A stretch of 64,000 nt of DNA from an uncultured Gammaproteobacteria bacterium (GTDB taxonomy: Bacteria > Patescibacteriota > Patescibacteriia > 2-01-FULL-39-33). The translations under genes and the position numbers were made by a program. The stretch lies in the NCBI GenBank assembly GCA_964512625.1, contig CAZEKG010000001.1, forward strand, positions 217,413 through 281,412. The letters are read 5' to 3'. Below the pieces are notes generated by a model. The model was not told the origin of the DNA. It did not search any database and saw only the letters and a list, made by a program, of their open reading frames with translations. This document shows positions 40,202 to 60,344 of the stretch, piece after piece. Position 1 is the first letter of the stretch; each line of letters opens with the position of its first letter.

Positions 40202-40269
40202 TTGGAAAGTTTGGCGGCTTATCTTTAAATTAAGCCGTTATCCGTAAAGCTGAAACCAAAGAAAATCAT

Positions 40270-41985
40270 ATGACTGAATTATTTAATCGTTTAAAAATCT
40301 TCTTAGACTATTTAAAAAATGAGCCCTCCGCTTTATGGCTGCGGCTTTTTTTTATCTTAGCGATCTTACTAGCCGGACTAGTTCTAAGAGCATATTTATC
40401 TAATCAATGCGCTTTGCCCTATTCGCCTTATGAACTCTTCCAACTAAACGAGCACCCGCGCTTATTCAATCCCAGCCAAGAAATAGATTTTTCCCAAAAA
40501 GCGGCGAAATACCCCTTGAGTTTCTTACTACAACCACTAATAGACGCCCTACCTGTCGGGAAATACATTATCTATTTTTTAGGAGCGATAATCATTTATT
40601 TTTTAGGCAAAGAAATCTCTTCAAAAGGGTTTGGGGGCATATTAGCTTTAACTTTTTTCGCCTTCGCTCCAGACAATTTGCTTTTTTATACTAGTAATTT
40701 TTTCTATAGCGGCCTTTGCTATATCCTTAGCTGGCTTTCTCTTCTTTATTTATTAAAGTACCTGAAATCAAGGAAACCGCCTTATCTTTTTGCTTTCTTT
40801 ATTTTTTCTCTTGGTGTTTTATTATCTTATCATACCGGTTCTTACGCTTTTGCGATCATAATCAGCGCCATCTTTTTTTATGATCTTTTTTCTTCCGGAA
40901 AAGTCGATAAAAAAATGGCGGCCGCTTATGCCTTCATTATTTCTTTCCTTTTCGTTTGGTCGCTTATTTTTGATTTAAACGAATTACTACTAATAAGAAA
41001 CTCCCTAATCACCGCTTTTACGACTTGGCCAGCGGTTCTCCTTATAACAATCTTAATAGCTATAACCGCCATTATCTTCATTTTAAAAAATAAAGGTTTC
41101 CTATACCTAAATTATCCAACTACATACTTAATAATTCTCGTCACTAGCCTAATCATTTGCTATCCGACGTTAAGTCATTCAATTGTAACTTTTCTTTCCA
41201 GCTACGCTTATATAACGCCCACGACTTTCTCCGCATACTTTATTCAGCTTATCATTATAATAATTTCCATTTTAAGCCTCTTTTCCAAAGAAAATAAAAA
41301 CCTTAATGAGGCCGAGCAAATATTCTTAAAAGGCTGGCTGATCGGCTTAGTAATTGTTCTTTTGGGGCTATTTATGGAAGGTTATTTAGTAAGAATAATT
41401 GATTTCATCGCTCCCTTGGCTTTTATTGTCTTTGGTCTTTTTTGGTCAAACAAAAAAAGACTCCGAACAATCGCCGGCATCCTTTTAATTGTCATTATGA
41501 TTACAACTCAGTTAGCAATCATTTATGATAAGTATAATATTAGGCGATGCTATTCAAAAAACGAGATTTATTCAGCTCGAGAAGTGGCTAACCTGCCGCT
41601 AAGCGGTATCTTCGTTTCCGACTTAAGGACGGCGGGGCTCCTATACTATTGCGGGCAAAAAAATATTACCTATACCAGCTATTATCTTGAATTCCATAAA
41701 ATCATATTTAAAAAACCCGAAACCTTAAGGAATTACCAACAGAAATTTATTTTTTATAAATACGACAATATAGTCAACCACTACCTCATCCTTTCAAAAA
41801 AAATGGATACGCTTATTTACGGCGTTAACTTCCCGCAGCAACCGCTCAAAAAATCAATCAGGGATTATTATCACACTAACTACGAATTAGTTTACGATAA
41901 CGAGGAGTTAGAGGTTTTTAAGATCAATAACAAGCCTGAATACAAAACTGATTCATACACAACAGCAACTAACCAATCTTTTTAG
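40270..41985 (+). CDS. polytopic integral membrane protein (possible GT-C glycosyltransferase / polymerase)
   Basis: More than 12 TM helices. Confidence 0.5.
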   Translation: MTELFNRLKIFLDYLKNEPSALWLRLFFILAILLAGLVLRAYLSNQCALPYSPYELFQLNEHPRLFNPSQEIDFSQKAAKYPLSFLLQPLIDALPVGKYIIYFLGAIIIYFLGKEISSKGFGGILALTFFAFAPDNLLFYTSNFFYSGLCYILSWLSLLYLLKYLKSRKPPYLFAFFIFSLGVLLSYHTGSYAFAIIISAIFFYDLFSSGKVDKKMAAAYAFIISFLFVWSLIFDLNELLLIRNSLITAFTTWPAVLLITILIAITAIIFILKNKGFLYLNYPTTYLIILVTSLIICYPTLSHSIVTFLSSYAYITPTTFSAYFIQLIIIIISILSLFSKENKNLNEAEQIFLKGWLIGLVIVLLGLFMEGYLVRIIDFIAPLAFIVFGLFWSNKKRLRTIAGILLIVIMITTQLAIIYDKYNIRRCYSKNEIYSAREVANLPLSGIFVSDLRTAGLLYYCGQKNITYTSYYLEFHKIIFKKPETLRNYQQKFIFYKYDNIVNHYLILSKKMDTLIYGVNFPQQPLKKSIRDYYHTNYELVYDNEELEVFKINNKPEYKTDSYTTATNQSF

Positions 41986-44371
41986 CCGAGGATAAGAGAA
42001 AGTTATAACAATTCTCCATACTCGACAAGTCCGCAATTTCCTCGCCGGATCTTAAAGCTAATTCATTAAAAAGTTTTTCCTGTTCCAAGCAAACTATTCC
42101 ATAATCCATAATCAATCTAAAATAAGCAGTATAATAACAATACTGCCTTATTTTTTCTAAATTATTAAAATTAGCACCCAATATCTGCCAATACCTATCT
42201 TTAAAGTTTTTAACGTCTTGATCTTCTAAATAATGGCACTTGATAGCCTTACCACTTAAAAACTCCGCTCCGAAATAAAACTCCAGAGACTCAGCGCGAT
42301 TAATTCGACTAAAAAAATAGGGGCTGTTCAAGGTTTTTTCCGTCAAAATAAGAGGGATAACCCGGTCATTTTCTTCAAGAGTCGTAAGAGTTGGCCAAGG
42401 ACTATCCTTAAGGGAAAAATCAATCAAGATATTTTTTATAATCTCGTCTTTTAATGGGATGAATATATAAAGTATCCTCTCTTTCGGTGTTAAATAAGTT
42501 CGAGGCGATAAATAAATCGCTTCCGTTCCAAGATGAGAAAGTTTTTCCACTTCTTTCTCTAGAAAAATCAATTTCCCGCCCTCTTTTTTTCCGACCAATT
42601 CCAACTCCCTCTTTTCATTATCAATTTCAAAGTTAAGATTCTCAAATAACTTTAAAGAAGTATAAATAATAAAAACCGCATCATCAAGACTGAAAATCTT
42701 ATTTTTATTCAAAATATTTTTCTCTATCAAATCTTCATTAAATCCCGCTTTTTCATGAATAAAAACGACTAATTCCTTAAGACTAGGATCAACTCCCAAT
42801 TCCTTAATATAGAACATCCTAGAAAGATTAAAAAAATACTCTCTCACCTTACGAGCTGATTTCAATGAGCCGTTTTTTAGATAATCAATGATTTCTAGTA
42901 AGATAAATTCATAACAAGTCCTTGCTCTTTCGGTTAGAAAAGTTTCTTCTTTTTTTATTTTATTCACTCTTAAATCGGAACCCAAAATAAGCTTAAAATC
43001 GGCTAAGTGCTTACCGACTCGCGTAATCTCATTAGTAGTATGTAATTCAATCAGTCTAAAATCATCGACCCTTAAAATCGAATTAATATGGATAATAGGT
43101 AATATTTTTTTAAATACTCTAATTGTTTTGTTAAGTTTTTTAATCCTCTCTTTCTTTTCTTCAGAGGAAGAATTGCTTATGATAACTAATAAATCAACAT
43201 CGCTTTGGCCGGCAACTATTCTATTTAAATCGGTCTTACTGTAAACAGCAACAACAAAATCGTATCGGGAAATAACTAAAATAAAAATCTTTACTGAAAA
43301 GTCATAAATAAAAAGCCAAAAATCATTGACTAATTTCCATTTCGAGCTTTTTTCAGCGATTTTAGCGATTAACCTATAAATAGATTTTAATGGATCAAAC
43401 CCTCTAGATTGCGATTGCCTTAAAATGAATTCATTGATTGCTATGTAATTTTCTAACCTATCACTGCCAAGATAGGCTTCGAAACATTTTGATCTAATAA
43501 CTAAAGACAGTGAAGCAAAAAACCGACCAAACCCTATCTTTGACTTACTAAATCCGGTCTTAAAATCATTAAGAATAAAAAAAGCTAAGGATTGCTGAAG
43601 CTCAAGCCCAAGAACCATACTTTTAAAAAGGGCTGTCAAAAGGCTAAATCGACTAGCTGAATCAACTCGACAATTACCAGTCATAAAGCGCCGACCTTTA
43701 ATAAGGCAAAAGGGTTGAAAATATAAATCATCAAAATTGAGCTTTTCATGATTAATTATCTTTTTCTCCTGACCAATTTCCTCTCTTAAAGACCAGGCGA
43801 AGTTAAGAGGATAAAGCTTATTCTTTTTATAAAGAACCATATCCTCGCCCAATACCCTAATCAACTTATCCTGAAAAAAGTTCATAGCCAAGGTTGATTT
43901 CCCGGCTCCGGGAGGCATAAGAAAAAGATAAGCTAGCCCTTTATAATCAAGAGCTAGGCAATGAACTCGATAATAGCCGAGCATGTCTAACTTTTCTCCT
44001 AATAAAGTTTCAAAAGCTAATCTTAATATCTTATAAGCCTTTAAAGAATCCTCCGCATAAATAAATACCTCCGATTTCTTCTTACTAAAATCATAAACGA
44101 CTAAGGCCGATCCAAAATAATCAATGTAGCGCACTTTCTTATCTTGCGATTCATAAACTATATAATCCTGATGATACTTTACGGCTGGCAGTTCTAATAA
44201 CCGATTATAATTGGGCCTTTCTAAAGCGACTGAGAAAAATAAATCTTCCTCGCGCGATAACTCTTTTTTATAATAACCATACTCCGATTCAGCTAACGAC
44301 AATAATTCTTCCGGCAAACTCAAAGCTATTAAGACATTATAAATATCAAGTTTTAGATTATTTTGAGACAT
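41969..44371 (-). CDS. 800-aa protein with HprK-like P-loop kinase domain and nucleotidyltransferase-like (pol-beta superfamily) domain
   Basis: YRVHCLALDYKGLAYLFLMPPGAGKSTLAMNF...LGEDMV resembles the HprK C-terminal kinase fold. AGQSDVDLLVI is a GS...DxD NTase motif. Confidence 0.5.
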   Translation of the reverse strand: MSQNNLKLDIYNVLIALSLPEELLSLAESEYGYYKKELSREEDLFFSVALERPNYNRLLELPAVKYHQDYIVYESQDKKVRYIDYFGSALVVYDFSKKKSEVFIYAEDSLKAYKILRLAFETLLGEKLDMLGYYRVHCLALDYKGLAYLFLMPPGAGKSTLAMNFFQDKLIRVLGEDMVLYKKNKLYPLNFAWSLREEIGQEKKIINHEKLNFDDLYFQPFCLIKGRRFMTGNCRVDSASRFSLLTALFKSMVLGLELQQSLAFFILNDFKTGFSKSKIGFGRFFASLSLVIRSKCFEAYLGSDRLENYIAINEFILRQSQSRGFDPLKSIYRLIAKIAEKSSKWKLVNDFWLFIYDFSVKIFILVISRYDFVVAVYSKTDLNRIVAGQSDVDLLVIISNSSSEEKKERIKKLNKTIRVFKKILPIIHINSILRVDDFRLIELHTTNEITRVGKHLADFKLILGSDLRVNKIKKEETFLTERARTCYEFILLEIIDYLKNGSLKSARKVREYFFNLSRMFYIKELGVDPSLKELVVFIHEKAGFNEDLIEKNILNKNKIFSLDDAVFIIYTSLKLFENLNFEIDNEKRELELVGKKEGGKLIFLEKEVEKLSHLGTEAIYLSPRTYLTPKERILYIFIPLKDEIIKNILIDFSLKDSPWPTLTTLEENDRVIPLILTEKTLNSPYFFSRINRAESLEFYFGAEFLSGKAIKCHYLEDQDVKNFKDRYWQILGANFNNLEKIRQYCYYTAYFRLIMDYGIVCLEQEKLFNELALRSGEEIADLSSMENCYNFLLSSAKKIG

Positions 44372-45500
44372 AGACGTAATACTCTTCTAAATCTTTTGCG
44401 ATCTTATCCCAATCAAAAGCTTTAGCTTTAATTAAGGAGTGCTCAGCCATTTTCTGCCTTAAGTTATCATCATTCAAAACATTTAAAACCTTAGCCGCGA
44501 TATCTTCAGCGCTATCCTCGGCCAAGAAACCGTTTAAACCATTATCGATTAGCTCCTTTGAGGCTGACATAACACTATCGACAACAATCGCCGGCAACCC
44601 GCAAGCATTAGCTTCAATAACTACAATTCCAAAACCCTCAAGAAGCGAGGGTAAAACGAATACTCGGCTTCGCTTAAGAGTCTTAAAGACTTCTTTAGAA
44701 GAAGCGAGAAACCCTGTCATAAAAATAACCTCTTCCAAGCCTAATTCTTTGATTTTTTCAATAATCACTTCTTTTTCCGGACCATCCCCGATTAAGCAAG
44801 CCTTGAGTTCCGGCTTTTTTTTCTTCATCTCATAAATAGCTTCAATCAACCTTATAATATTCTTTTGATGAACGAAACGACCAGCAAAAGCTAAATCATA
44901 GATTTTTTCCGGCTCTGCAATCTTGGCTATTTTTTCGTTATCAACTCCATTATAAGAAATAAATATTTTTTCCGGACTTAAGCCTGATCTTATTAAATCT
45001 CTTTTAGTTGTTTGGGACATGGCAAGATGATTATCGGTAAAATTCTCAACTATCTTCTCAATCACCCTACCGATAAAACCCCGAACCGGCCCTAGATAAT
45101 CATACCAGTAATCGCCCCAAAATTGATGCCAGCTCATTATCAGCTTGGACTTCGTTTTCAAAGAAGCTAGCTTAACCGTAAAGCAATGAAAATAAACAAA
45201 GGAAGAACAATCAATAATATCAAATTTTTCTTTCGCTAAATGACGATAAAGAAAGAAAGCGAATTTCAATGGCTCCCAGACTGTCCTCGTTCCGGAAAAA
45301 TTATATAGCTTTTTATAACGGCAAACTCCATGAATAATAATCCCGTCGCAAGAAATCGTATCCGGGCCATCCCAAAGCTTAACCCCAAATAGATGAACTT
45401 CGTGATTCTTGGCCAACCGTTTAGCCATTTCATAATTCCTTAACTCTGCCCCGCCAATGTTGAAGGGGTAAATCATATCATAGATAAAAGCGATCTTCAT
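44358..45500 (-). CDS. glycosyltransferase family 4
   Basis: ...RVFVLPSLLEGFGIVVIEANACGLPAIVVD... Confidence 0.8.
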   Translation of the reverse strand: MKIAFIYDMIYPFNIGGAELRNYEMAKRLAKNHEVHLFGVKLWDGPDTISCDGIIIHGVCRYKKLYNFSGTRTVWEPLKFAFFLYRHLAKEKFDIIDCSSFVYFHCFTVKLASLKTKSKLIMSWHQFWGDYWYDYLGPVRGFIGRVIEKIVENFTDNHLAMSQTTKRDLIRSGLSPEKIFISYNGVDNEKIAKIAEPEKIYDLAFAGRFVHQKNIIRLIEAIYEMKKKKPELKACLIGDGPEKEVIIEKIKELGLEEVIFMTGFLASSKEVFKTLKRSRVFVLPSLLEGFGIVVIEANACGLPAIVVDSVMSASKELIDNGLNGFLAEDSAEDIAAKVLNVLNDDNLRQKMAEHSLIKAKAFDWDKIAKDLEEYYVYVSK

Positions 45501-45603
45501 TTATATTCCGATTTAAGATTTATACTAATTCAGCGGCCCTATGGGGCCGCTGAGAGCTTATCTAATCCCTTACTATCCTACAAAATTATCCCATTTATAG
45601 CAA

Positions 45604-48600
45604 TTAAGGCGTCAAGCCTTCTTCCGGAGGAGTCTCGACTATAACAGTCGAATTATCAGCCGGCGTTTCAACGCTGACAGTCGGCTCTTCGACAATAGGC
45701 TCAGAAGGCGTTTCTAAAGCCGGCGGCTCAACTTCAGGATCAGTACTACTTGAGACAGTCTCTTCAGGCATACTGGAAGAGGCTTCGGTACTTGAGCTAA
45801 CAGACACCTCGTTATTATTTCCGGACTCGGTCGAATTACCGGAAGAAACATCAATTGAATTATTATTATTTTCACCGCCGATAACTTCCCCAACATTCGA
45901 TTGATCACTTGAGGAAGCGTAATTAAACCCGTCAACCGCTAAAGCGTGCCAACCAAACTCGATGTCGCTAGAAAAAATCGGATCAATATTAAGCCTGAAG
46001 CCAGTCTTTGATTCTTCACTAATCCAATAAGTTGAAGGTTTGATATCGTTTCTCGGGGTAGCGGTAATGATTGGGATCCAAAGGTATTCTTTCGAGAAAT
46101 TAACTTCCGTCGAAGTGGCTCCGGCTAAAAGCTTGACAATTCCGGCCATATCGCGATTAAAGTAAACCTGATCCTTAAAGACGACTTTAGAGGTAAAGTT
46201 AGCCTCGCCAATAACGGTTATACTGCCGACAAAATCAGCTTCCTGGTTAACGGTTATACGGGCAAAAGAAGCGTCCGCAGTAACAGTTATAGGAGCATTA
46301 AATTCTTGAGATTCCTTAAAAGTAAAAGAATAAAGAACTTCCCGTTTTCCAGAACTAGAAGTCGACGAACTAGTTGAAGCGCTTCCGGAAGAACTATTAG
46401 CAGATACTTCATTTTCAAGAGAAGAGCTATTTCTAATTAACATCATGATCTTTCCAGTTGAGCCATTAAAGTCTTCAAGCGCTACACCAATAATACCGAC
46501 TGAGCGAGCAGTCGCTTTCATGGCATGACCAAGAGTGTCGGAAGTCGTCAATAAATCACCCGCTTTAATCGAGCCATTTTCTCCCGAAACCTTAACCGGA
46601 ATACGACCGGCCAAACCAATTCTTACAGCATCATCACCAGCGTTTTCGGCGCTCATAACTACGCCTGGATCAGTTGTTACCGCTCCTAAGACTCTTGAAT
46701 CATAACTCTTACTACTTAAGGTAACTTTTTCTTCGCCAGCCGCAATTAGAACATCACCTTCTTCCGGTTTTTGGCCGATATATTTTATCCACTCAGCGAT
46801 ATCAGAAGAATTACTAACGACGCCACCGGCAGTATATACCTTGCCCCTACTCCAAATACCGATACTGGCAGTAGAAGTTGTATCGACATATAAACCGTAA
46901 CCGGTTTGCTGAGAACCAATAGTCAAACCATGCGTAAGAGTTGAAGTAGCAATAGCAACTTTAGTAGTACTTACATACATAGCAACTACCCTATTAGATC
47001 CGCCTCCAGTAGCAGCATAATCTTCCTTAAAAATCCTTAATAAGCCGCCGTTAGCATCAATATTCCATAAATTGCTTTTATTCGAAGCGGGAAGAATCAC
47101 TCTAGTATCAATTCTAGCTTCACCAGCAACATGAAGACGATTACCAGGAGTAGTAGTTCCGATGCCGACGTTACCACCCCCCTGAATAGTCATCAAATTA
47201 TTCATCACTCCAGCATTAGTATAATCATATAATCTAAAACCTCCGATATTTCCTCCAGCTCGATTGGAAACTAAATCAATCTCTCCTTCGCCCCCTGAAT
47301 AATTCCAACCAGTAAGTAGTTTTCCTGAACTTTGCAAAGGAACTAAAGAATATCCTGCTGTCGGATCCATATTTTTACCTGCGACAATAAGACCTCCTGC
47401 GCCATTCACATCTAATTTTCCACTAGGTGCTGTTAGACCAATCCCCACATTACCAGTACTAGCAATAGTCATTTTATTGGAATCATTAGCAAAGAAATCC
47501 AAATAACCTGTTCGAACACCAAAACCATAAAAATCAGAAGTACCGTCATAAACGGCCAGCTTCTTAGCCGTAACATCAGTACCCAAAGACAATTTAACCA
47601 GAGGCGCATTAGTTCCAGTCCCGACTCCCAAATACCCAGCTGAACTAATAGTCATAACATTACCGGTTCCAAGAGAAGAAGTAGCGATAGTAAAATAATC
47701 ACTAGCAGACACATCATTGCCGATTGACCATTTAAGGACTCCTGATTTCCTAAACTCCATAACACTATCTCCGCCGGCGGCAGCACCAACAGCTAAATTG
47801 CCTGTCGTCGTTACATTGCCGCTAGTGTCGATAGTAAAGTTATTGGCACTGCCGACAGTAAATAGTTTTGATGGAGTTGTCGTTCCGATACCGACATTAG
47901 TTCCATTATCATATAAGACTCCCGTACTTAAGGTATTAGCATCGCTCCAACGTGCCACATAACCAGCAACACCAGTCATAGCAGTAAAGGCCCCTGTACC
48001 ATTACCTTTTACAACACCAGTTAAAGTACTTGCTCCAGTACCGCCATTAGCAACAGATAGGACAGTTCCTGACCAATTACTATTATTTATTGTATTTAAA
48101 ACCGCTAAAGATCCGAGGCCTAAATTAGTTCTTGCTCCAGCAGCTGTAGAAGATCCAGTACCCCCATAAGCAACGCCAATAACTCCACCTATCCATGTTC
48201 CTGAAATATTACCGGAAACAACCAAATTACCAGAAGTTGTTGCATTCGTTACCTGAAGACTGCCAAGAGTCATTGCACTAACCGTACCAGTTAAGTTAAT
48301 GGATGGTGCCGTTAAAGATATAGCTTGAGTCGCCGACAAATCAACATTGGAGTTGGTTCCATTAGCATTAATACCAATACTAGAACCATTGCCGTTAGTT
48401 TGAATAGTAAGCCCATGACTATTGCCAACTGTTTCCATGGTTAAATTCGTACCTCCAGTCATTGTTAAGGTAGAACTACTATTCATATTTATACCGCCAC
48501 TGCCAGTATTAAACAACTGCAAGGCGCCATTGATCGTATTAAGTTTTAAATTCTGACCGGTATCAGCATAAAAATTCAAATTAGTCGCATCACTAGTAAT

Positions 48601-50997
48601 AACCCTTGTTCCGTTCATATAAAAGGAGTTACCACTAGTATAGATATGATCAGCATACAAGGCGCCCGAAACCGTCAAGGTTGTCGTTGCTGAATAAGGA
48701 GTTGAGGTTCCGATCGTAGTTATGTTTGGTAAAATAGTCATACCTGATCCGGAAGGCTGAAGAGTAATATTCTGATTCGAACCGCCGGCCGTAAAAGTAA
48801 GAGCGCCGGTTCCAGTAATCGAACCATTATTGCTTCCCGTACCGCCATAAGGCACTCCGACAATCGTACCATTCCAAGTGCCTCCGGAGATAACTGCTCC
48901 GTTAATCGTCCCAGTAACGCTAAGATTGCCGCCGACGCTTAGGTTGGCATAAATAGAGGAGGTACCTGTCGGTCCATTAACGGCCAAGGTACCGCCAATA
49001 ACGGCGCCATTATTCAAAGTCAAAGAACTGAATTGAGGACTGGCACCAGTTCCAATGTTTTGGACAGTATCAAGCTGGCTGCCGCTAACCATTAAATTGC
49101 TAGTATTAAAACTAAGACTTAATTGCCCGGTTGTTGTAGATAGTTGTAATGGACTAACGGTATTAAAAGCCGACCTAGCTCTAACATCAGTAAAATACAA
49201 ATTAGAAACTTCCGGAATATTAGAAGTATTTAAATCGACAGCCCCAGAAAAACCGTTAACAGAAGTAACACTAGCCCCTTGAAGTAACTCAACCCAATCG
49301 CTGGATGAGGTAGCACTGTTTCCCTGGAGAATATAGGTCTTATTAAGGGAAGAAATAACCGCCACATCCCCCTTATTAGCGCTTAAATTAAGCATGGATG
49401 AGGTCGTATTGGTTACGAAAGTATTATTCAAAGGTACGGAGCCGATTTGAGAAGTCGGAATCTTGCCATTAGAATCAAGTGTAGCTAAGCCATTAACTTG
49501 GCCCTTTTGTAGATCTATCCTAGCATCGGCGCGAGCATTCGTATAATAAAGATTTGTTACTCCCTCCCCTATATCATCCGTATCAATAAGAATCGAGCCA
49601 TTAACCGGAAATACGCCATTAACTTCCCTAACCGAAGCCATAGGAGAGGAAAGCTCGATCCAATCTCCAACCTGACTACAGGGTGCCGTTTGCAAAACGA
49701 AAGAAGTGCTACTAGCCGAAATAATGGCCACATCACCTACCGTCAGCGTACTACTTGAAGGTCCGGAACAAAGATTGACCATTTCCTGGGTTGTTGAAAC
49801 GACATAAGTATTACCAATAACGATAGATGACAACTGAGAAAGAGGGATCTTACGATTAGCTCCTAAAGTAGCCAAGCCATTCGCCTCACCTTTCTGAAGT
49901 GAAATCCTACTATCAGCCGCCAAATTAGCTCTCGTATCCGTATAGTATAAATTAGAGCCCTCCGTTAAATTAGAAGTTGATTTTAAAGCAAAATTACTAT
50001 TGAAATTAGAAGTATCTCGAGCATCGGTATAATAAAGGTTCGAGCCTTCCGCTAAATTAGAAGTTGATTTAGTCGCTAAGTCAGCATTAAATAAAGTTGA
50101 AGAATAATATTTATTAGTAGATCCTTGAGCTAGATCGTCTGTCGTTTTTTGACTAAGGAGAGTATTAAAACTACTAGTTGCTCGAGCTGAAGTATAATAA
50201 AGATTCGATCCTTCAGTTAAATTAGAAGTACTCTTAAGAGAAAAATTACTATCAAAATTGGTTCCGAAAGCCCACCAACTCGAGGTCGCATTAAAAGCGT
50301 CATTCCAAGCATTATTAAAACCAACACCAGTTAATGAGCCGTTAATAACTGCCGGCCCGTTAAATGTCGAAGTTGCGGTAACTGTTAATTTACCCTGAGA
50401 AAGAATATCAGCGGTCGTCGTTACGCCGTTTAGCGTCATTCCACCAACAGAATCCATAACCATGATTTGATTAGCAACGGGAGTTGTCGTCGCCTTAAAA
50501 CCGCCCAAAGTTTCCGAGTTAAAAGCGTAAGGCGTAGCCGTCAGCTTTTTCCTCGGCGTAAAAGCTTCCTCAAAAATTCCGTTATTATCCGTATCTAAAT
50601 AAACTTGGAGATAAACGGTGCTATTGGCACTAAAAATATCTTGAGGGAGCGTCGAAGAAGCGCCTAAAGTGGCAGAAAAAATACCGTTACTAACGCTGAC
50701 TGATTGGGTTTCCGACCAGGAACTTATCGGACTACCGCCGGAAGAGGTATTGTAAAGCTCAAACTTAAAGCTTAGGGGCGTAGAAGTTACGGCCTGACCA
50801 AGGGAATTAATTAACTTACCTTGATAGGTTATTTCGCGATTTATATCTCCAGTTAAGGCCTGAGAAATCTTCTTTTGGCCGTAAATACCAATAAACAAAA
50901 GGATAAAAATAAAACTAAAAAACAAGCAAGTAAAATAAAATCTTCCTCTTTTTTGATTAGAATTGTTTTTTTCGGTTTGTTTTAGACTAGAAAGCAT
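45604..50997 (-). CDS. giant (1797 aa) cell-surface fibre-like protein with tandem repeats
   Basis: N-terminal TM anchor. About five tandem copies of ...KSTSNLTEGSNLYYT(D/S)AR... GVPYGGTGS / VANGGTGAST motifs. Ser/Thr/Asn-rich. Pro/Glu-rich C-terminal tail. Confidence 0.7.
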   Translation of the reverse strand: MLSSLKQTEKNNSNQKRGRFYFTCLFFSFIFILLFIGIYGQKKISQALTGDINREITYQGKLINSLGQAVTSTPLSFKFELYNTSSGGSPISSWSETQSVSVSNGIFSATLGASSTLPQDIFSANSTVYLQVYLDTDNNGIFEEAFTPRKKLTATPYAFNSETLGGFKATTTPVANQIMVMDSVGGMTLNGVTTTADILSQGKLTVTATSTFNGPAVINGSLTGVGFNNAWNDAFNATSSWWAFGTNFDSNFSLKSTSNLTEGSNLYYTSARATSSFNTLLSQKTTDDLAQGSTNKYYSSTLFNADLATKSTSNLAEGSNLYYTDARDTSNFNSNFALKSTSNLTEGSNLYYTDTRANLAADSRISLQKGEANGLATLGANRKIPLSQLSSIVIGNTYVVSTTQEMVNLCSGPSSSTLTVGDVAIISASSTSFVLQTAPCSQVGDWIELSSPMASVREVNGVFPVNGSILIDTDDIGEGVTNLYYTNARADARIDLQKGQVNGLATLDSNGKIPTSQIGSVPLNNTFVTNTTSSMLNLSANKGDVAVISSLNKTYILQGNSATSSSDWVELLQGASVTSVNGFSGAVDLNTSNIPEVSNLYFTDVRARSAFNTVSPLQLSTTTGQLSLSFNTSNLMVSGSQLDTVQNIGTGASPQFSSLTLNNGAVIGGTLAVNGPTGTSSIYANLSVGGNLSVTGTINGAVISGGTWNGTIVGVPYGGTGSNNGSITGTGALTFTAGGSNQNITLQPSGSGMTILPNITTIGTSTPYSATTTLTVSGALYADHIYTSGNSFYMNGTRVITSDATNLNFYADTGQNLKLNTINGALQLFNTGSGGINMNSSSTLTMTGGTNLTMETVGNSHGLTIQTNGNGSSIGINANGTNSNVDLSATQAISLTAPSINLTGTVSAMTLGSLQVTNATTSGNLVVSGNISGTWIGGVIGVAYGGTGSSTAAGARTNLGLGSLAVLNTINNSNWSGTVLSVANGGTGASTLTGVVKGNGTGAFTAMTGVAGYVARWSDANTLSTGVLYDNGTNVGIGTTTPSKLFTVGSANNFTIDTSGNVTTTGNLAVGAAAGGDSVMEFRKSGVLKWSIGNDVSASDYFTIATSSLGTGNVMTISSAGYLGVGTGTNAPLVKLSLGTDVTAKKLAVYDGTSDFYGFGVRTGYLDFFANDSNKMTIASTGNVGIGLTAPSGKLDVNGAGGLIVAGKNMDPTAGYSLVPLQSSGKLLTGWNYSGGEGEIDLVSNRAGGNIGGFRLYDYTNAGVMNNLMTIQGGGNVGIGTTTPGNRLHVAGEARIDTRVILPASNKSNLWNIDANGGLLRIFKEDYAATGGGSNRVVAMYVSTTKVAIATSTLTHGLTIGSQQTGYGLYVDTTSTASIGIWSRGKVYTAGGVVSNSSDIAEWIKYIGQKPEEGDVLIAAGEEKVTLSSKSYDSRVLGAVTTDPGVVMSAENAGDDAVRIGLAGRIPVKVSGENGSIKAGDLLTTSDTLGHAMKATARSVGIIGVALEDFNGSTGKIMMLIRNSSSLENEVSANSSSGSASTSSSTSSSGKREVLYSFTFKESQEFNAPITVTADASFARITVNQEADFVGSITVIGEANFTSKVVFKDQVYFNRDMAGIVKLLAGATSTEVNFSKEYLWIPIITATPRNDIKPSTYWISEESKTGFRLNIDPIFSSDIEFGWHALAVDGFNYASSSDQSNVGEVIGGENNNNSIDVSSGNSTESGNNNEVSVSSSTEASSSMPEETVSSSTDPEVEPPALETPSEPIVEEPTVSVETPADNSTVIVETPPEEGLTP

Positions 50998-51335
50998 GAA
51001 AAGTCTCTTGTTCCGAATTTATTTTTTAATAAAAACCCCCGATTTTAGGCCAACAAAAACAGTTTTTAAAAACTTTTAGTCTGAAATTTATTTTCAGCTA
51101 AATTTTCGCCAACCTTCCATCGATTGTCTATATTATTATAACATTATTAAGCTATTCCTTTCAAGAGATAAGAAGAAAATAAAAAAACGCTTTAACAGCG
51201 TCTATAAAAACTCATAATTAGCTGACTTTACTGCTTTTTTTATAAAAAATTTTCTTTAATTAAAAATTTAGAATGTGTTACTATATCAAACCTGTGGAAA
51301 AAAACTTGACCGGCTTTTTTTCGTCAAGTTTTTTT

Positions 51336-52568
51336 TTAATCTAATTTAAGAGTACCGCCATCTATTTTTACAGTTCCGCCATCGATCAACGCTTTAGTCG
51401 GGGTAATTTCTGAATAAATAACTGTGAGGTAGGGCTGATAGCCCATGCCAGCTTCCGAGAGATGAATTCGAATATCACTACCAAATATTGGCGTTGCCTG
51501 AACATTTTCTAAATCATGACCCTCTCTTAGACCTAAACAAGTTACTCCCGTAGTATTATTTGCTGTTCCACAAGAAGACGCTTCTCCATTTCTTTTAATC
51601 CACCCCTTACCGATATTATTTAAAGAGAAATGTATAAATCCTGAACCCATACTATCAATATCCGTAAGGCTAATGGGCGTAGCTCCAACAGTGTTCGTAA
51701 AATTATCATAATTATCATAACTCCAAGCCGAGATACTGGATTGGGAACTTTCAACTACATTAATGTAATTTTTACCATCAGCGGAACCGTCATAAACACT
51801 ATTGACATAAACAACTAGCGTTGCGGAAATAATATTCGCCCCGCTACGAATAGAAGAGGTATCGAAAGGTAAGAAAGTTCTATAAATCGCAAAAGTACTA
51901 TCCATAGCATTATAGTTAATCCCACTATAAGCATCAACTAATTCCATAGAGCCGCAATTTCCCGTAGTCGCGTTATGAGTAGTCGCCCAAGATGTTGACC
52001 CGCCATAACATATCCAGCCATCACCCGATCCAGAAAAAAAATAAGAAGTCAAATCAGCTAAAGCTTTTTTTCCGAAAAACTCCTTAACCCGATCAAGAAC
52101 CGTCAGCTTAACTTGCCTTTTAAAAGAGACGGCTGTTGTCGTTGCGGCTTCAATCTTATACCATTTATTCCCAACTCGCTCAAAGGACTTTCCGGAAAAG
52201 AAACGGGCAACATACTTTTCTTCCTGGAATTTTTTATTTATCGGCTTGACTGATTCAAGAAAAGTCATAGAGCTTTCCGTTCTCTTACTTAAATCTTCCT
52301 TAAGACCATTATAAAGCATAGGGGGAACTTCCTGATTAGAGATATAGCTATATCTTACAATACTTTCTTCTTCCTTTCCCGGCCGGCCTAAAACTTTATA
52401 ATCAATAATTTTTTCCTTCGGTGCTTTTAATAACTCGTCGCCGCTTAGCGACTCAACCGCTTTTTGCTTTTGATAGAAATCAATACTAAAAATAACGATC
52501 CCGACCACAAAAATTAAAGCCAGTACGGCTAATAATATTTTTTTAGAGTTTGAATTTATTATCTTCAT
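51336..52568 (-). CDS. membrane-anchored hypothetical protein (410 aa), extracytoplasmic
   Basis: N-terminal TM segment; no motif. Co-directional with, and immediately downstream of, the giant protein gene. Confidence 0.5.
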   Translation of the reverse strand: MKIINSNSKKILLAVLALIFVVGIVIFSIDFYQKQKAVESLSGDELLKAPKEKIIDYKVLGRPGKEEESIVRYSYISNQEVPPMLYNGLKEDLSKRTESSMTFLESVKPINKKFQEEKYVARFFSGKSFERVGNKWYKIEAATTTAVSFKRQVKLTVLDRVKEFFGKKALADLTSYFFSGSGDGWICYGGSTSWATTHNATTGNCGSMELVDAYSGINYNAMDSTFAIYRTFLPFDTSSIRSGANIISATLVVYVNSVYDGSADGKNYINVVESSQSSISAWSYDNYDNFTNTVGATPISLTDIDSMGSGFIHFSLNNIGKGWIKRNGEASSCGTANNTTGVTCLGLREGHDLENVQATPIFGSDIRIHLSEAGMGYQPYLTVIYSEITPTKALIDGGTVKIDGGTLKLD

Positions 52569-52572
52569 TTTA

Positions 52573-53247
52573 TTATTTTAAGGATTCGCTTTCCCCGGCC
52601 ACTTCTCCATTTCTTAAAAATAAAGCGCCTCTAATCTTATCAGTCAATAATTCATCATTGATCTTTCCATTAGAAAACTTCTCTAATACTAAGGAAGTTC
52701 CGCGATTAAGACCTGATTGGAAGTCAATCGAAGCTGTTTTTATCATCTCTCCTTCAATAATAATAGTTTTTCCGATATCTCTGCCCAAGGATAAGCCGAT
52801 ACCTAAGATAGCTACTGTCGCGATTCCCGCCAAGAAAGAAAATTGGTAATCCCTCCCCTTTTTCTCCGGCCGAGCCTTAATCTTATTTTTTATAATCTTG
52901 TCCTTAACGATTTTTTTGTTACCTGATCGGCTTTTAAAAGCAACCGACTTAACTTTACTATCGGAAAAAACATGATGATTTAGGTGATGATCATCCGACT
53001 TCCGAGCTATTTCCAATTCATCATCCAATCCCTTCTTAAATTTATTAAGATAGTCCTTAAACCAAGCCTCGTTTGTCAGCCAATGGCCGTCATACTTAAA
53101 AGCCTTTAAAGAACCGGCGCCTATCAAGCGCATTAAATGAGCTTCGCTGAAACCGAACTTAACCGAAGCCTCTTTTAATGTTAGGCAACCAGGAAAATAA
53201 GCGTCTAAATCGACTAGATTGTCCTTTTTTAAAACTTTTCTTTTCAT
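52573..53247 (-). CDS. membrane-anchored protein with N-terminal excisionase/MerR-like HTH
   Basis: LTLKEASVKFGFSEAHLMRLIGAGSLKAFKYDGHWL resembles Xis-type HTH. One TM segment at about residue 150. Confidence 0.45.
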   Translation of the reverse strand: MKRKVLKKDNLVDLDAYFPGCLTLKEASVKFGFSEAHLMRLIGAGSLKAFKYDGHWLTNEAWFKDYLNKFKKGLDDELEIARKSDDHHLNHHVFSDSKVKSVAFKSRSGNKKIVKDKIIKNKIKARPEKKGRDYQFSFLAGIATVAILGIGLSLGRDIGKTIIIEGEMIKTASIDFQSGLNRGTSLVLEKFSNGKINDELLTDKIRGALFLRNGEVAGESESLK

Positions 53248-53344
53248 AAGGCTATTATAACATAAATAAGACTATCTAATCGAGTCTTAAAAAATAAAAT
53301 TCCCACACCAACAGGAATGGGAATCTTAGATTTTTTTTAAAAAC

Positions 53345-53902
53345 CTATTTAGTAGCGGCCGTAGAAGAAGCCTTCTGTTGTTTTAAATAGCTATTGATTG
53401 CCTGAACGACCTTAGAATCTAATCTCAATTTTTCAGTCAATAAAACCTGGGCTCGGTTTATAACCATATTATCCGTCGGGCCATGAAGCTCGTTACCAAG
53501 TTTAATTAAAGTCAACTGCTGCTCTTGATTAGCCGCATCAGTAGTCGCTGCTTCTTGAGTCCTTTGAAGTGGCTTAGTTACAACTTGAAGATAATAAATA
53601 TCCCTTAGGATTATATTATTATCGTCCTGAGACTTTATCTTGCCAAAATAAACCTGGCCATTTGTTAAGAAAACCGCTTGCCAACCGCTGTAATCCTGAC
53701 CTTTGGCCTTAGCCATCATCTCCGATCCGTATTGGTTGTAAGCGAATAAAACGCCTCCGATAACAACTATTAACACAATGATTCCAACCAGCCAGCCCAT
53801 CATTCCCTTACCTTTTCCGCTTCTTCTCGGTTCTGATTGATCCACTTCTTGATCATCGAATGACATTTCTGACATTGGTGATTCTCTCCTTTTATAAACC
53901 AT
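53345..53902 (-). CDS. membrane-anchored hypothetical protein
   Basis: Single TM (WLVGIIVLIVVIGGVLFAY); no motif. Confidence 0.45.
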   Translation of the reverse strand: MVYKRRESPMSEMSFDDQEVDQSEPRRSGKGKGMMGWLVGIIVLIVVIGGVLFAYNQYGSEMMAKAKGQDYSGWQAVFLTNGQVYFGKIKSQDDNNIILRDIYYLQVVTKPLQRTQEAATTDAANQEQQLTLIKLGNELHGPTDNMVINRAQVLLTEKLRLDSKVVQAINSYLKQQKASSTAATK

Positions 53903-59334: not shown

Positions 59335-59567
59335 CGATTCAACCTCCTCCCCTCATCGGGGCTTGTTACTAAACATACATTCAGACAGAACAAGACAAAG
59401 TAACTTACCATATATCTTTATTTATGTCAATATATTTTAAGTTATTTTCTTATTTTTTAGCCTATTTTAGATATTATATATTAACTCCCAAAGAAATTTA
59501 AAGAAAATAAAAAGCGGGCTGTATTTCAAGCCCGCGAGGTGTAAAAAAGTACTGAGATCTTTGTCGT

Positions 59568-60308
59568 TTACGGCAAGGTCGCCGTTACAACGCAACGCCA
59601 ATAACCGCCATCAGCCGCGCTGATTTGAGCCACGCTGAGTTGGTCGCCGGTCAGGACCGCAGTCCCGATACTGGCGCCAAGATCGCCGTTATTGATATTC
59701 GTCCAATTCGTGTTGTCTGGCGAATGCTGCCACTGGAACGTGTAAGTCGTCCCAGCCTGGCCGCCGGAAGGCGTGGCTGTGAGAGTCATCGTATGCGGAT
59801 AGGTAGCATTGCCGTCCGGATACGGATTGACTGTCGTATTGTCGGCCATGACGGAAACCGTCGGCGCCGCATAAACGGTCAGCTGTGCCGAGTCCGAAGT
59901 CAAGCTAACGCCCGACCCGCTATTGGTCGTAATCACGCAACGGTAATATCCCGCGTTACCAAGGACGACGGACGGCGCGTTATAGGTCGCGGCTGTCGCA
60001 CCCACAACATCGTTAAACGTAACGTTGTCGGATGAGTATTGCCACTGGTAAACCAGGGCGGGTCCGGTCGCCGAAATTGAGAAGCCAGCCGGGTCGCCGA
60101 CATAGGCCGCCGTACTCGTCGGTTGCGCCGAAATGTTCGCCGTGCCATTGACGGTAATCAAAACCGCATTCGAATTGACCGTAACAGCAAGCGCCGGGAA
60201 CGACCCGAAGGTCATGGCAATCGCGAGAACCGCGGTCAACAACACTTTCGAAAGCTTCTGCTTCTTCATGAGTTCTTCTCCTTCTCCCGATATCCTCGGG
60301 AATTCCAT
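59568..60308 (-). CDS. secreted protein with Ig-like domains; lies in the GC-rich segment
   Basis: Signal peptide. YQWQYSSDNVTF...AGYYRCVITT... GGYWRCVVTA. Confidence 0.65.
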   Translation of the reverse strand: MEFPRISGEGEELMKKQKLSKVLLTAVLAIAMTFGSFPALAVTVNSNAVLITVNGTANISAQPTSTAAYVGDPAGFSISATGPALVYQWQYSSDNVTFNDVVGATAATYNAPSVVLGNAGYYRCVITTNSGSGVSLTSDSAQLTVYAAPTVSVMADNTTVNPYPDGNATYPHTMTLTATPSGGQAGTTYTFQWQHSPDNTNWTNINNGDLGASIGTAVLTGDQLSVAQISAADGGYWRCVVTATLP

Positions 60309-60344
60309 ATGCCTTTCGAATTGAGAGACGCTCCCCCAACTCGA

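What the first reader, a model, noticed from the sequence alone, without database searches (positions are those of the whole stretch)
45604..50997. 1797-aa tandem-repeat surface fibre protein downstream of a glycosylation gene cluster
The protein has an N-terminal membrane anchor followed by ~5 near-identical ~24-aa repeats (KSTSNLTEGSNLYYT[DS]AR[AD]TS.FN). It then runs through long Ser/Thr/Asn/Gly-rich beta-type sequence, with GGTGS-type motifs reminiscent of phage tail-fibre or adhesin shafts. It ends in a Pro/Glu-rich tail.

It is co-directional with two GT4 glycosyltransferases, an HprK-like/NTase protein and two large polytopic membrane proteins on the opposite strand upstream (38.7-45.5 kb). 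It is followed by three small membrane-anchored proteins.

Together this looks like a locus for a glycosylated surface filament or S-layer-like structure, which in episymbiotic CPR-like bacteria would be a prime host-attachment candidate.
Basis: partly seen in the sequence, partly recalled or inferred. Interest (0 to 1): 0.55.

Follow-up and report, generated by a model that had tools for sequence, protein, structure and literature searches.

The report
Phage-tail-fibre-like surface fibre of a CPR bacterium
The 1797-residue gene is real. It encodes a secreted, phage-tail-fibre-like surface fibre of a probable CPR (Patescibacteria) bacterium, related to the prey-recognition fibres of the predator Bdellovibrio, so it is a good but unproven candidate for binding the host cell.

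Summary
The ORF (45604-50997, minus strand, 1797 aa) and the described features are real, and the repeats are not an assembly artefact.

It is a mosaic fibre. In order it has:
- a signal peptide or membrane anchor;
- an N-terminal domain homologous to the Bdellovibrio MAT-fibre N-domain;
- a 27-29-aa NLYYT repeat array and two small modules shared with phage minor tail and structural proteins;
- a Gly/Thr/Asn shaft;
- a beta-helix matching solved Bdellovibrio MAT fibres Bd2133 and Bd3182;
This is a phi29-gp12-type (Peptidase_G2-like) intramolecular chaperone whose S1398|D1399 aligns in register with the gp12 cleavage site, followed by a Ser linker, an H-type-lectin-like beta-sandwich and an acidic tail.

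The flanks are housekeeping genes, with no phage genes. Named relatives of the N-domain are nearly all Patescibacteria.

The gene has its own promoter-like site and a following hairpin, so it is probably not in an operon with the glycosyltransferases. A conserved envelope-glycan cassette adjoins fibre genes in 3 of 6 loci, but it also occurs without fibres. Glycosylation and an S-layer role are unsupported.

Verdict: a new variant of a known kind (MAT / tail-fibre-like adhesins), of moderate interest.

The parts
51135..51164 (-). Sigma-70-like promoter (TTGAAA-18-TATAAT with an extended -10 TG) about 140 nt upstream of the ATG. A terminator-like hairpin at 51185-51203 precedes it.
   Evidence: a consensus match only
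50857..50997 (-). aa 1-47: KRGR, a 20-residue hydrophobic core, then SQA|LTG. This is either a Sec signal peptide or an N-terminal membrane anchor.
   Evidence: SQA|LTG aligns with AQA|ATG-type signal-peptidase sites in homologues. Cleavage is inferred.
50503..50850 (-). aa 50-165: N-terminal beta-sandwich domain homologous to the Bdellovibrio MAT-fibre N-domain. It is the presumed cell-proximal docking end.
   Evidence: NCBIfam Bdello_MAT_N E 1.8e-9, and 7/7 relatives hit. AF2 pLDDT 66-88. Conserved in P0019/P0062/P0059/P0101/P0113.
49858..50247 (-). aa 251-380: array of 27-29-aa repeats (KSTSNLTEGSNLYYTxAR), three near-identical copies plus one degenerate copy.
   Evidence: PHROG 697 structural protein. 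Relatives in cyanophage structural proteins.
49138..49857 (-). aa 381-620: two copies of a small alpha/beta module (LQKG..NGLATLD.NGKIP.SQ ... GDVAV...KTYIL...W.EL), each flanked by a diverged NLY[YF]T repeat.
   Evidence: AF2 pLDDT 76-90. PHROG minor tail protein 23595 E 6.6e-19 and tail protein 26941. BFVD hits to minor tail and receptor-binding proteins. 615 phage records.
47998..49137 (-). aa 621-1000: Gly/Thr/Ser/Asn-rich shaft with GGTG motifs, including AYGGTGSSTAAGARTNLGLG.
   Evidence: 61-66% identity over aa 742-931 to fibres in L001 and L002.
46804..47997 (-). aa 1001-1398: beta-helix shaft with GNVGIG repeats, similar to the crystallised Bdellovibrio MAT fibres Bd2133 and Bd3182. 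It ends at S1398.
   Evidence: PDB 8OND E 2.2e-4 (aa 1001-1200) and 8OJN E 4.7e-5 (aa 1166-1298). PHROG 9942 tail fiber protein E 2.7e-11.
46429..46803 (-). aa 1399-1523: phi29-gp12-type (Peptidase_G2-like) intramolecular chaperone domain starting with DIAEW. The putative autocleavage site is S1398|D1399.
   Evidence: hhalign to gp12: probability 73.6%, E 2.9e-5, S|D in register. hmmsearch hit to 3GQH. Foldseek 3SUC E 1.7e-3. AF2 pLDDT 75-96. D-x-A-E motif in 127/149 relatives.
46273..46428 (-). aa 1524-1575: Ser-rich disordered linker.
45913..46272 (-). aa 1576-1695: H-type-lectin-like beta-sandwich (domain B). In relatives it follows either the G2-like domain or a Peptidase_S74 domain.
   Evidence: AF2 pLDDT 81-97. 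Foldseek HPA 2ce6/2ccv and 4q56, TM 0.55-0.58. Pfam H_lectin in 10/18 homologues, best E 1.1e-4. Domain order in relatives.
45607..45912 (-). aa 1696-1797: acidic, low-complexity tail rich in Ser, Glu, Val and Pro. No sorting signal was noticed on reading the sequence.
45531..45552 (-). 9-bp GC-rich hairpin 52 nt after the stop codon (-23 kcal/mol, z -5.0). Probably a terminator, although it has no T-run.
38720..41985 (+). Context: w493 and w571, two polytopic membrane proteins of a conserved envelope-glycan cassette.
   Evidence: w493 homologues adjoin fibre genes in L001 and L007.
41969..45500 (-). Context: a GT4 glycosyltransferase (44358-45500) overlapping by 14 nt an 800-aa P-loop / nucleotidyltransferase-like protein (41969-44371), immediately downstream of the fibre gene.
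51336..53902 (-). Context, upstream and co-directional: a DNRLRE-domain membrane or secreted protein (51336-52568), an HTH_17 protein with a transmembrane segment (52573-53247) and a 185-aa single-pass membrane protein (53345-53902).
   Evidence: Small HTH_17/MerR-like genes also precede fibre genes in L004-L007.

Best explanation
The gene encodes a cell-encoded, Sec-exported fibre of a CPR (Patescibacteria) bacterium. It is probably homotrimeric and is built like a phage tail fibre. It belongs to the same broad superfamily as the Bdellovibrio MAT (mosaic adhesive trimer) prey-recognition fibres.

**Proposed mechanism**
1. The N-terminal signal peptide takes the chain across the membrane. It is either cleaved after A47 or retained as an anchor.
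2. The conserved MAT_N-like beta-sandwich (aa 50-165) holds the fibre on the cell surface.
3. The repeat array, the phage-type modules and the beta-helix form a long shaft.
4. Folding and trimerisation are nucleated from the C-terminus by a phi29-gp12-type intramolecular chaperone (aa 1399-1523).
5. That chaperone probably then cuts the chain at S1398|D1399. The cut would release or cap off the chaperone, the H-lectin-like domain and the acidic tail.
6. The exposed distal end binds a surface glycan of the host bacterium. This end is the beta-helix tip, or the H-lectin-like trimer if it stays attached.

**Shown:** the domain composition and its homologies, the cellular non-phage context, and the restriction of close relatives to CPR.

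**Inferred:** trimer formation, signal-peptide cleavage, autoproteolysis, surface retention and host binding.
For: **N-terminal domain**
- NCBIfam Bdello_MAT_N scores E 1.8e-9 for this protein, and all 7 of 7 aligned relatives hit it, best E 1.4e-12.
- AF2 predicts a confident beta-sandwich.

**Shaft**
- Sequence matches to solved MAT fibres Bd3182 (8OJN, E 4.7e-5) and Bd2133 (8OND, E 2.2e-4).
- PHROG tail fiber protein 9942, E 2.7e-11.

**aa 41-620**
- PHROG minor tail, tail and structural protein families, down to E 6.6e-19.
- 36 BFVD structural hits at E<1e-3 to minor tail and receptor-binding proteins.
- 615 phage records by tblastn.

**C-terminal cassette**
- hhalign of the family profile against phi29 gp12 gives probability 73.6% and E 2.9e-5, with S1398-D1399 aligned to gp12 S691-D692.
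- Mature gp12* ends at residue 691 (PMC6542822), and the crystallised gp12 chaperone fragment begins DFAEYF.
- Foldseek matches premature gp12 (3SUC) at E 1.7e-3.
- The D-x-A-E motif is kept in 127/149 relatives.
- The confident AF2 domain begins exactly at the S|D site.
- Domain B has an H-lectin-like fold and weak Pfam H_lectin hits in 10/18 homologues.

**Relatives and context**
- Relatives with the same N-domain and domain B carry Peptidase_S74 in place of the G2-like domain, so a self-cleaving chaperone sits at the same position.
- Export signal: a hydrophobic N-terminus, with AxA-type sites aligned in homologues.
- Cellular context: housekeeping genes on both sides and no phage genes. 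No relative was found in IMG/VR.
- Taxonomy: named N-domain relatives are almost all Patescibacteria. The closest fibres and cassettes are in Buchananbacteria, Magasanikiibacteriota and Patescibacteria MAGs.
- The functional analogy comes from PMC10769870.
Against: - No Pfam model reaches threshold on this protein.
- The Bdello_MAT_N score (37.6 bits) is below the curated cut-off of 60 and covers only profile positions 14-80 of 162.
- Each link to gp12 and to H-lectins is individually weak: hmmsearch E 0.18, Foldseek E about 1e-3 and 0.07-0.14.
- The residue before the conserved Asp varies in the family (Ala 69, Tyr 45, Phe 42, Ser 12).
- The G2-like domain occurs twice, internally, in some proteins such as P0145. 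That fits poorly with obligate C-terminal cleavage.
- From my own recollection, not checked here, gp12 cleavage was reported to depend on ATP, which is unavailable outside the cell.
- A conserved lectin-like domain placed after a self-cleaving chaperone is puzzling if the lectin is the adhesive tip.
- The trimeric state could not be modelled, and AF2 confidence is low for the repeat and shaft regions.
- No experimental or expression data exist, and the organism was not directly identified.
Confidence: 0.7

Rival explanations
1. It is a virion protein: a tail fibre of a prophage, a tailocin or an extracellular contractile injection system, and not a cell-surface structure.
For: Nearly every module has phage counterparts. 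The C-terminal chaperone is of the phi29 gp12 type, and its closest phage relatives are PA5oct-like jumbo-phage virion proteins. One relative (P0019) lies in a mobile-element-like context.
Against: The protein has an N-terminal export signal; from general knowledge, not tested here, virion fibres normally lack one. No capsid, portal, terminase, sheath, tube or baseplate genes were found among the window ORFs scanned. Those scans covered 34.6-64 kb and the ten largest ORFs of 1-30 kb, and the flanks are tRNA synthetases, tmRNA/SmpB, IF3, L20, topoisomerase I and CTP synthase. No relative was found in IMG/VR. Named N-domain relatives come from Patescibacteria genomes. The C-terminal query has 17,104 relative clusters in metagenomes (66 of the top 149 carry both domains), but phage records match domain A only, in 11 records.
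Confidence: 0.05
2. It is a general adhesin or matrix fibre for surfaces, biofilm or self-aggregation, or a protective coat, and not a host-specific recognition device.
For: Nothing in the sequence identifies the ligand. H-type lectins and beta-helix fibres bind common sugars. Adjacency to an envelope-glycan cassette could mean the fibre binds the cell's own glycan.
Against: The mosaic design, with a conserved N-domain and swapped shafts and tips among relatives, is the pattern expected of diversifying recognition proteins and is the pattern described for MAT fibres (PMC10769870). CPR bacteria cultivated so far are obligate episymbionts (PMC12206443).
Confidence: 0.2
3. It is a glycosylated S-layer-like or sheath protein made by one dedicated locus together with the neighbouring glycosyltransferases.
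For: A GT4 gene lies 103 nt downstream. w493-family polytopic proteins adjoin fibre genes in 3 of 6 loci. L001 and L007 also carry GT2, GT4 and GT8 genes nearby. There is mild NxS/T enrichment.
Against: There are no S-layer or SLH domains, and all recognised modules are fibre-type. The gene has its own promoter-like site and a strong hairpin before the GT4 gene. The w493/w571 cassette occurs with no fibre gene within 10 kb in L008-L010. Fibre loci L002, L003 and L004/5 lack it.
Confidence: 0.07

Closest known systems
Bdellovibrio bacteriovorus MAT (mosaic adhesive trimer) fibres, e.g. Bd3182, Bd2133 (Caulton et al. 2024, PMC10769870; PDB 8OJN, 8OND)
   Same: Signal peptide followed by a homologous N-terminal domain. 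A long shaft with a beta-helix that matches Bd3182 and Bd2133 by sequence. A mosaic design with a conserved N-end and exchangeable distal parts. Close relatives end in Peptidase_S74, like the S74 subfamily of MATs. The producer lives on other bacteria.
   Different: It is below the curated NCBIfam cut-off (37.6 against 60 bits) and matches only the first half of the N-domain model. It is almost twice the typical MAT length of about 1000 aa. It adds an NLYYT repeat array and actinophage/cyanophage-type modules. Its C-terminus is a G2-like chaperone plus an H-lectin-like domain plus an acidic tail, which is not among the tips described for Bdellovibrio (S74, two novel beta-sandwiches, TNF-like, C-type lectin). 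The host lineage is CPR, not Bdellovibrionota.
Bacillus phage phi29 pre-neck appendage protein gp12 (tailspike with a self-cleaving C-terminal auto-chaperone; PDB 3SUC, 3GQH; Pfam Peptidase_G2)
   Same: A beta-helical trimeric shaft is followed by a beta-stranded chaperone domain. The S|D-x-A-E junction aligns in register. Fold match at E 1.7e-3.
   Different: It does not reach Pfam Peptidase_G2. Here the domain is not the C-terminal end: a linker, a lectin-like domain and an acidic tail follow it. The protein is exported by a cell and not assembled onto a virion. Cleavage is untested.
Phage minor tail proteins and tail fibres of actinophages and T4-like cyanophages (PHROGs 23595, 26941, 697, 9942)
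   Same: The 27-29-aa NLYYT repeats and the LDxxGKIPxSQL / GDVAV...KTYIL modules.
   Different: Those are virion components without export signals, encoded in phage structural modules. They lack the MAT_N-like domain and the G2-like plus H-lectin-like cassette.
H-type lectins (Helix pomatia agglutinin, discoidin II C-domain, SLL-2; Pfam PF09458)
   Same: Domain B has a beta-sandwich of similar size and topology (TM 0.55-0.58). There are weak Pfam hits in 10/18 homologues. From general knowledge, H-type lectins are trimeric, which would suit a trimeric fibre.
   Different: No Pfam hit for this protein itself. Identity is about 10%. Sugar-binding residues were not examined. The position after a presumably self-cleaving chaperone is unlike any characterised H-type lectin known to me.

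Membership tests
Bdellovibrio MAT fibre family (NCBIfam NF053851 Bdello_MAT_N; PMC10769870) | Conserved N-terminal MAT domain after a signal peptide | tested here: inconclusive
   The hit is significant (E 1.8e-9, with 7/7 relatives hitting, best 1.4e-12). However, it scores 37.6 bits against a curated cut-off of 60 and covers only profile positions 14-80 of 162. This shows homology, not subfamily membership.
Bdellovibrio MAT fibre family | Beta-helical fibre shaft like Bd3182 and Bd2133 | tested here: met
   phmmer against PDB: 8OJN E 4.7e-5 (aa 1166-1298) and 8OND E 2.2e-4 (aa 1001-1200).
Bdellovibrio MAT fibre family | Mosaicism: a conserved presentation end with exchangeable distal domains | tested here: met
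   Relatives share the N-domain and domain B but differ in shaft and chaperone type. The best local alignments cover only 4-35% of the query for all but one of the 119 listed relatives (P0019, 71%).
Bdellovibrio MAT fibre family | Homotrimer displayed on the cell surface | not testable with these tools
   No multimer modelling or localisation data. Only an export signal was seen.
Peptidase_G2 / phi29 gp12-type intramolecular chaperone | Match to Pfam PF11962 | tested here: not met
   No hit for this protein. Only 2 of 18 homologues hit, best E 3.2e-4.
Peptidase_G2 / phi29 gp12-type intramolecular chaperone | Fold and profile similarity to the gp12 C-terminal domain | tested here: met
   hhalign probability 73.6%, E 2.9e-5. 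Foldseek 3SUC E 1.7e-3 over 179 columns. hmmsearch 3GQH E 0.18.
Peptidase_G2 / phi29 gp12-type intramolecular chaperone | Cleavage-site motif Ser|Asp-x-Ala-Glu at the junction with the beta-helix | tested here: met
   S1398-D1399-I-A-E aligns with gp12 S691-D692-F-A-E. D-x-A-E is present in 127/149 relatives, but the residue before Asp varies.
Peptidase_G2 / phi29 gp12-type intramolecular chaperone | Autoproteolytic release after trimer assembly | not testable with these tools
   Needs expression and mass spectrometry.
Peptidase_S74 (endosialidase-type intramolecular chaperone) | Match to Pfam PF13884 | tested here: not met
   Absent from this protein. Present at the equivalent position in relatives P0019, P0062 and P0101.
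H-type lectin (Pfam PF09458) | Pfam match and H-lectin beta-sandwich fold | tested here: inconclusive
   No Pfam hit for this protein, while 10/18 homologues hit weakly (best E 1.1e-4). Foldseek to HPA, 4q56, SLL-2 and discoidin II gives TM 0.54-0.58 for the small lectins (0.24 for discoidin II), E 0.07-0.3.
H-type lectin (Pfam PF09458) | Conserved GalNAc/GlcNAc-binding residues and sugar binding | not tested
   Residue mapping was not done. Binding needs experiment.
Virion tail fibre (phage, tailocin or eCIS) | Encoded within a phage or injection-system structural gene module | tested here: not met
   The flanks are housekeeping genes. No IMG/VR relative.
S-layer protein | S-layer, SLH or other lattice-forming domains | tested here: not met
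   No Pfam or NCBIfam S-layer model matched.

The most novel reading that the evidence does not exclude
Patescibacteria as a whole carry a large, fast-recombining family of MAT-type fibres built from phage parts, and these fibres are their host-recognition determinants. The family is marked by a MAT_N-like docking domain, seen here in relatives named from about ten candidate phyla. It also carries a C-terminal cassette (a G2-like or S74 chaperone followed by an H-lectin-like domain) that looks overwhelmingly cellular, not viral. After self-cleavage, the chaperone-lectin fragment may act as a removable cap or as a released trimeric lectin. This would link the surface-recognition toolkits of episymbionts (CPR) and predators (Bdellovibrio) to one common, phage-derived origin.
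Probability: 0.3. Interest if true: 0.7.

Novelty: new variant of a known kind. Interest (0 to 1): 0.5.

Why it matters
How ultra-small episymbiotic CPR bacteria find and hold their hosts is largely unknown. Type IV pili are the only well-studied device (PMC12206443).

This protein belongs to a family with three relevant properties:
- It is homologous to the only characterised bacterial fibres that target other bacteria, the Bdellovibrio MAT fibres.
- It is widespread in Patescibacteria.
- It is modular in the way receptor-binding proteins are.

It therefore gives concrete constructs for binding and cleavage assays: the tip domains and the S1398|D1399 junction. It also gives a family marker, the N-domain, for predicting host range from genomes.

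The combination of a G2-like chaperone with an H-lectin-like domain has many thousands of relative clusters in metagenomes (17,104 for the two-domain query; 66 of the top 149 carry both domains). I found no description of it in the papers searched.

Tried and rejected
**Searches that gave nothing useful**
- Pfam on the whole protein gave nothing.
- Tandem Repeats Finder found no DNA tandem array in the ORF.
- An exact-sequence contig look-up for the protein failed.
- The N-domain alignment was too diverse for the genome-collection scan. The single-protein scan found only three relatives and not the source genome.
- The metagenome scan returned the same two contigs again, and the viral scan returned nothing.
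- Foldseek of the N-terminal model against PDB gave only generic Ig-like hits. [quoted passage not shown]
- The polytopic neighbour w493 has no PDB, Pfam or NCBIfam match beyond a weak EpsG hit, and all its named relatives are 'hypothetical'.
- Literature searches for Peptidase_G2 and for CPR tail-fibre-like adhesins found no direct description.

**Readings rejected**
- Assembly artefact: the DNA copies of the repeat are only 66-76% identical.
- Prophage origin: the context is housekeeping genes.
- Operon with the GT4 gene: promoter-like site and hairpin.
- A paralogue within the window: tblastn found none.
- The three upstream genes as conserved partners: no homologues in the related loci.
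Full report
**1. Observation**

The ORF 45604..50997 lies on the minus strand and encodes 1797 aa.
- It has one hydrophobic segment (aa 20-38) after a KRGR motif.
- The NLY[YF]T motif occurs at aa 265, 320, 349, 482 and 599, with a degenerate copy near aa 297. GGTG motifs lie at aa 718, 945 and 985, and GNVGIG motifs at aa 1034, 1183 and 1276.
- The last 102 residues are S21 E17 V12 P11.
- Only three repeat copies are near-identical, and the period is 27-29 aa.
- Tandem Repeats Finder sees no DNA array in the ORF, and the DNA copies are 66-76% identical. The peptide motif is therefore kept by selection, and an assembly artefact is excluded.
- Because the gene is on the minus strand, the three membrane-anchored proteins at 51336-53902 are upstream. 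The GT4 gene (44358-45500) and the 800-aa protein (41969-44371) are downstream.

**2. Genomic setting**

The window is ordinary chromosome. It carries tmRNA and SmpB, IF3, L20, tRNAs, aminoacyl-tRNA synthetases, an M16 peptidase, topoisomerase I, CTP synthase, a RelA/SpoT-family protein, a MurA-like enzyme and DprA. No phage structural gene was seen.

The exact protein is in NCBI on a 284-kb contig, without a name. The source genome is not among the species representatives searched. The closest loci are MAGs of Candidatus Buchananbacteria and Candidatus Magasanikiibacteriota, plus one 12-kb contig binned as Gammaproteobacteria.

A profile of the N-terminal domain finds 539 proteins. Those that carry a name are almost all Patescibacteria: Parcubacteria, Magasanikbacteria, Pacebacteria, Kaiserbacteria, Nomurabacteria, Vogelbacteria, Yonathbacteria, Nealsonbacteria and Saccharibacteria. 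The closest named relatives of the C-terminal cassette are again Buchananbacteria and Patescibacteria. A CPR origin is thus well supported, though indirectly.

**3. Anatomy, from the N-terminus**

(a) *aa 1-47, export signal.* The homologues have canonical AxA sites (AQA|ATG, ANA|AFT) aligned with SQA|LTG here. Cleavage as a signal peptide is therefore at least as likely as a retained anchor.

(b) *aa 50-165, N-terminal domain.* This is a beta-sandwich (AF2 pLDDT 66-88). It hits NCBIfam Bdello_MAT_N at E 1.8e-9, as do all seven aligned relatives. The score is below the curated cut-off. Foldseek finds only generic Ig-like folds in the PDB; Caulton et al. also report that the MAT N-domain has no structural homologue (PMC10769870).

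(c) *aa 251-620, repeats and modules.* This stretch holds the NLYYT repeat array and two copies of a small alpha/beta module (pLDDT 76-90).
   - It is the part shared with most of the 1466 relatives.
   - It matches PHROG minor tail, tail and structural protein families (down to E 6.6e-19).
   - It matches predicted structures of actinophage minor tail proteins and a Synechococcus phage tail fibre.
   - It has relatives in 615 phage records.

(d) *aa 621-1398, shaft.* The distal part of this Gly/Thr/Asn shaft matches the crystallised beta-helices of Bd2133 (8OND, E 2.2e-4) and Bd3182 (8OJN, E 4.7e-5) and PHROG tail fiber protein 9942.

(e) *aa 1399-1523, domain A.* AF2 pLDDT is 75-96, and the confident region starts exactly at the S|D junction.
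   - The family profile finds the phi29 gp12 chaperone fragment 3GQH, starting at its first residue (DFAEYF).
   - hhalign against gp12 gives probability 73.6% and E 2.9e-5, with S1398-D1399 aligned to S691-D692.
   - Foldseek finds premature gp12 (3SUC) at E 1.7e-3, together with phage capsid decoration proteins of the same fold.
   - Mature gp12* ends at residue 691 (PMC6542822), and the gp12 chaperone is released by autoproteolysis (PMC4690869).
   - D-x-A-E is kept in 127 of 149 relatives.

(f) *aa 1524-1575.* A Ser-rich linker.

(g) *aa 1576-1695, domain B.* AF2 pLDDT is 81-97. It resembles H-type lectins (TM 0.55-0.58) and tailspike C-terminal knobs. Ten of 18 homologues give weak Pfam H_lectin hits.

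(h) *aa 1696-1797.* An acidic low-complexity tail.

**4. The C-terminal cassette as a family**

An exhaustive HMMER search with aa 1320-1700 finds 17,104 representative clusters at E<=1e-3. Of the top 149, 66 have domains A and B in the same order.

Relatives that share this protein's N-domain and domain B (P0019, P0062, P0101) carry Peptidase_S74 where this protein has domain A. Two different self-cleaving chaperone types therefore occupy the same slot before domain B.

In phage genomes only domain A was found, in 11 PA5oct-like jumbo phages. The cassette thus looks mainly cellular.

**5. Neighbourhood**

The fibre gene is preceded by a terminator-like hairpin and an 11/12 sigma-70-like promoter with an extended -10. 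A -23 kcal/mol hairpin (z -5) follows the stop codon. It is probably monocistronic.

The plus-strand polytopic proteins w493 and w571 belong to a conserved cassette: w493, a GT2 with GT2_TM_C, a w571-like protein, GT4, GT2 or GT8, and an ABC2 exporter (the exporter in two of the three loci). This cassette is found in Patescibacteria and Omnitrophota genomes with no fibre gene within 10 kb. On the other hand, w493 homologues adjoin fibre genes in L001 and L007 (two copies there) as well as here. That is 3 of 6 fibre loci with readable flanks.

This suggests a facultative link, for example a shared surface island, or a glycan that decorates or docks the fibre. It does not suggest a dedicated operon.

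A small HTH_17 or MerR-like gene sits directly upstream of the fibre gene in L004/5, L006 and L007. The window has an HTH_17 protein with a transmembrane segment two genes upstream.

**6. Mechanism**

The best reading is a Sec-exported, probably trimeric fibre. It would be docked by its MAT_N-like end, folded from the C-terminus by a gp12-type intramolecular chaperone, and probably cut at S1398|D1399. Its distal end would bind a glycan on the host cell.

- Shown: the homologies, the domain order, the cellular context and the CPR distribution.
- Inferred: the trimer, both cleavages, surface retention and the ligand.
- Open: why a lectin-like domain is conserved after a self-cleaving chaperone. 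It may be a cap or a released lectin, or the domain may not cleave when secreted. The variable residue before Asp, and internal duplicate A domains in some proteins, keep this open.

**7. Comparison and novelty**

The protein works like a MAT fibre or a phage receptor-binding fibre.
- It is homologous to MATs at the N-domain and the beta-helix, but it fails the curated subfamily threshold.
- It is homologous to gp12 at the chaperone, but it fails Pfam Peptidase_G2.
- It lacks S74.

I found no description of MAT-like fibres in CPR, or of the cassette combining a G2-like chaperone with an H-lectin-like domain, in the literature searches. NCBI labels at least one relative 'tail fiber domain-containing protein'.

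I therefore rate it a new variant of a known kind, with moderate interest (0.5).

Noticed in passing
window 38720-41985 (+); L008-L010: w493 belongs to an unannotated family of polytopic membrane proteins. Its named members come only from Patescibacteria, Omnitrophota and DPANN archaea. It heads a conserved cassette: w493, a GT2 with GT2_TM_C, a w571-like protein of about 570-610 aa, GT4, GT2 or GT8, and (in two of three loci) an ABC2 exporter. I would guess a Gtr-like system in which a polyprenyl-phosphate-sugar synthase feeds GT-C-type transferases, but no model matches.
   Followed up: partly
L004/L005 6094-6348; L006 9246-9954; L007 4716-4886; window 52573-53247: A small HTH_17 or MerR-like gene lies immediately upstream of fibre genes in three independent related loci. 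The window instead has a 224-aa HTH_17 protein with a transmembrane segment, two genes upstream. This may be a dedicated regulator.
   Followed up: partly
window 58237-61934 (-): An island of higher GC (0.50-0.52 against about 0.40) encodes three proteins with immunoglobulin (Ig_3 / I-set / Ig_2), bacterial TSP3 repeat and Binary_toxB calcium-binding domains, next to a receiver-domain protein. These may be horizontally acquired adhesins.
   Followed up: no
window 41969-44371 (-): An 800-aa cytoplasmic protein has a P-loop (PPGAGKST), weak HprK-related-kinase-A similarity (E 0.028) and a nucleotidyltransferase-like GQSDVDLLVI motif. It overlaps the upstream GT4 gene by 14 nt and has no Pfam family.
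   Followed up: no
L004/L005 (protein P0019): The best collinear relative (31% identity over aa 52-1320) lies in a mobile-element-like context. Its neighbours are a serine recombinase, a TrwB-like coupling protein, a Thoeris ThsB TIR protein, a caspase-like peptidase C14 and LexA. This suggests that fibre genes can travel on integrative elements.
   Followed up: no
proteins P0145, P0213 and others: The G2-like domain A occurs twice, at internal positions, in some giant proteins (for example P0145 aa 501-640 and 992-1138). This is hard to reconcile with a purely C-terminal, self-removing chaperone.
   Followed up: no
window 51336-52568 (-): The gene directly upstream of the fibre encodes a 410-aa protein with an N-terminal hydrophobic segment and a DNRLRE domain (E 7.8e-9). 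No homologue is present in the related fibre loci.
   Followed up: partly
window 49768, 49678 (codons for Cys410 and Cys440): Apart from one Cys in the signal peptide, the only two cysteines of the protein lie 30 residues apart in the first alpha/beta module. A single disulphide is possible, which would fit an extracellular location.
   Followed up: no
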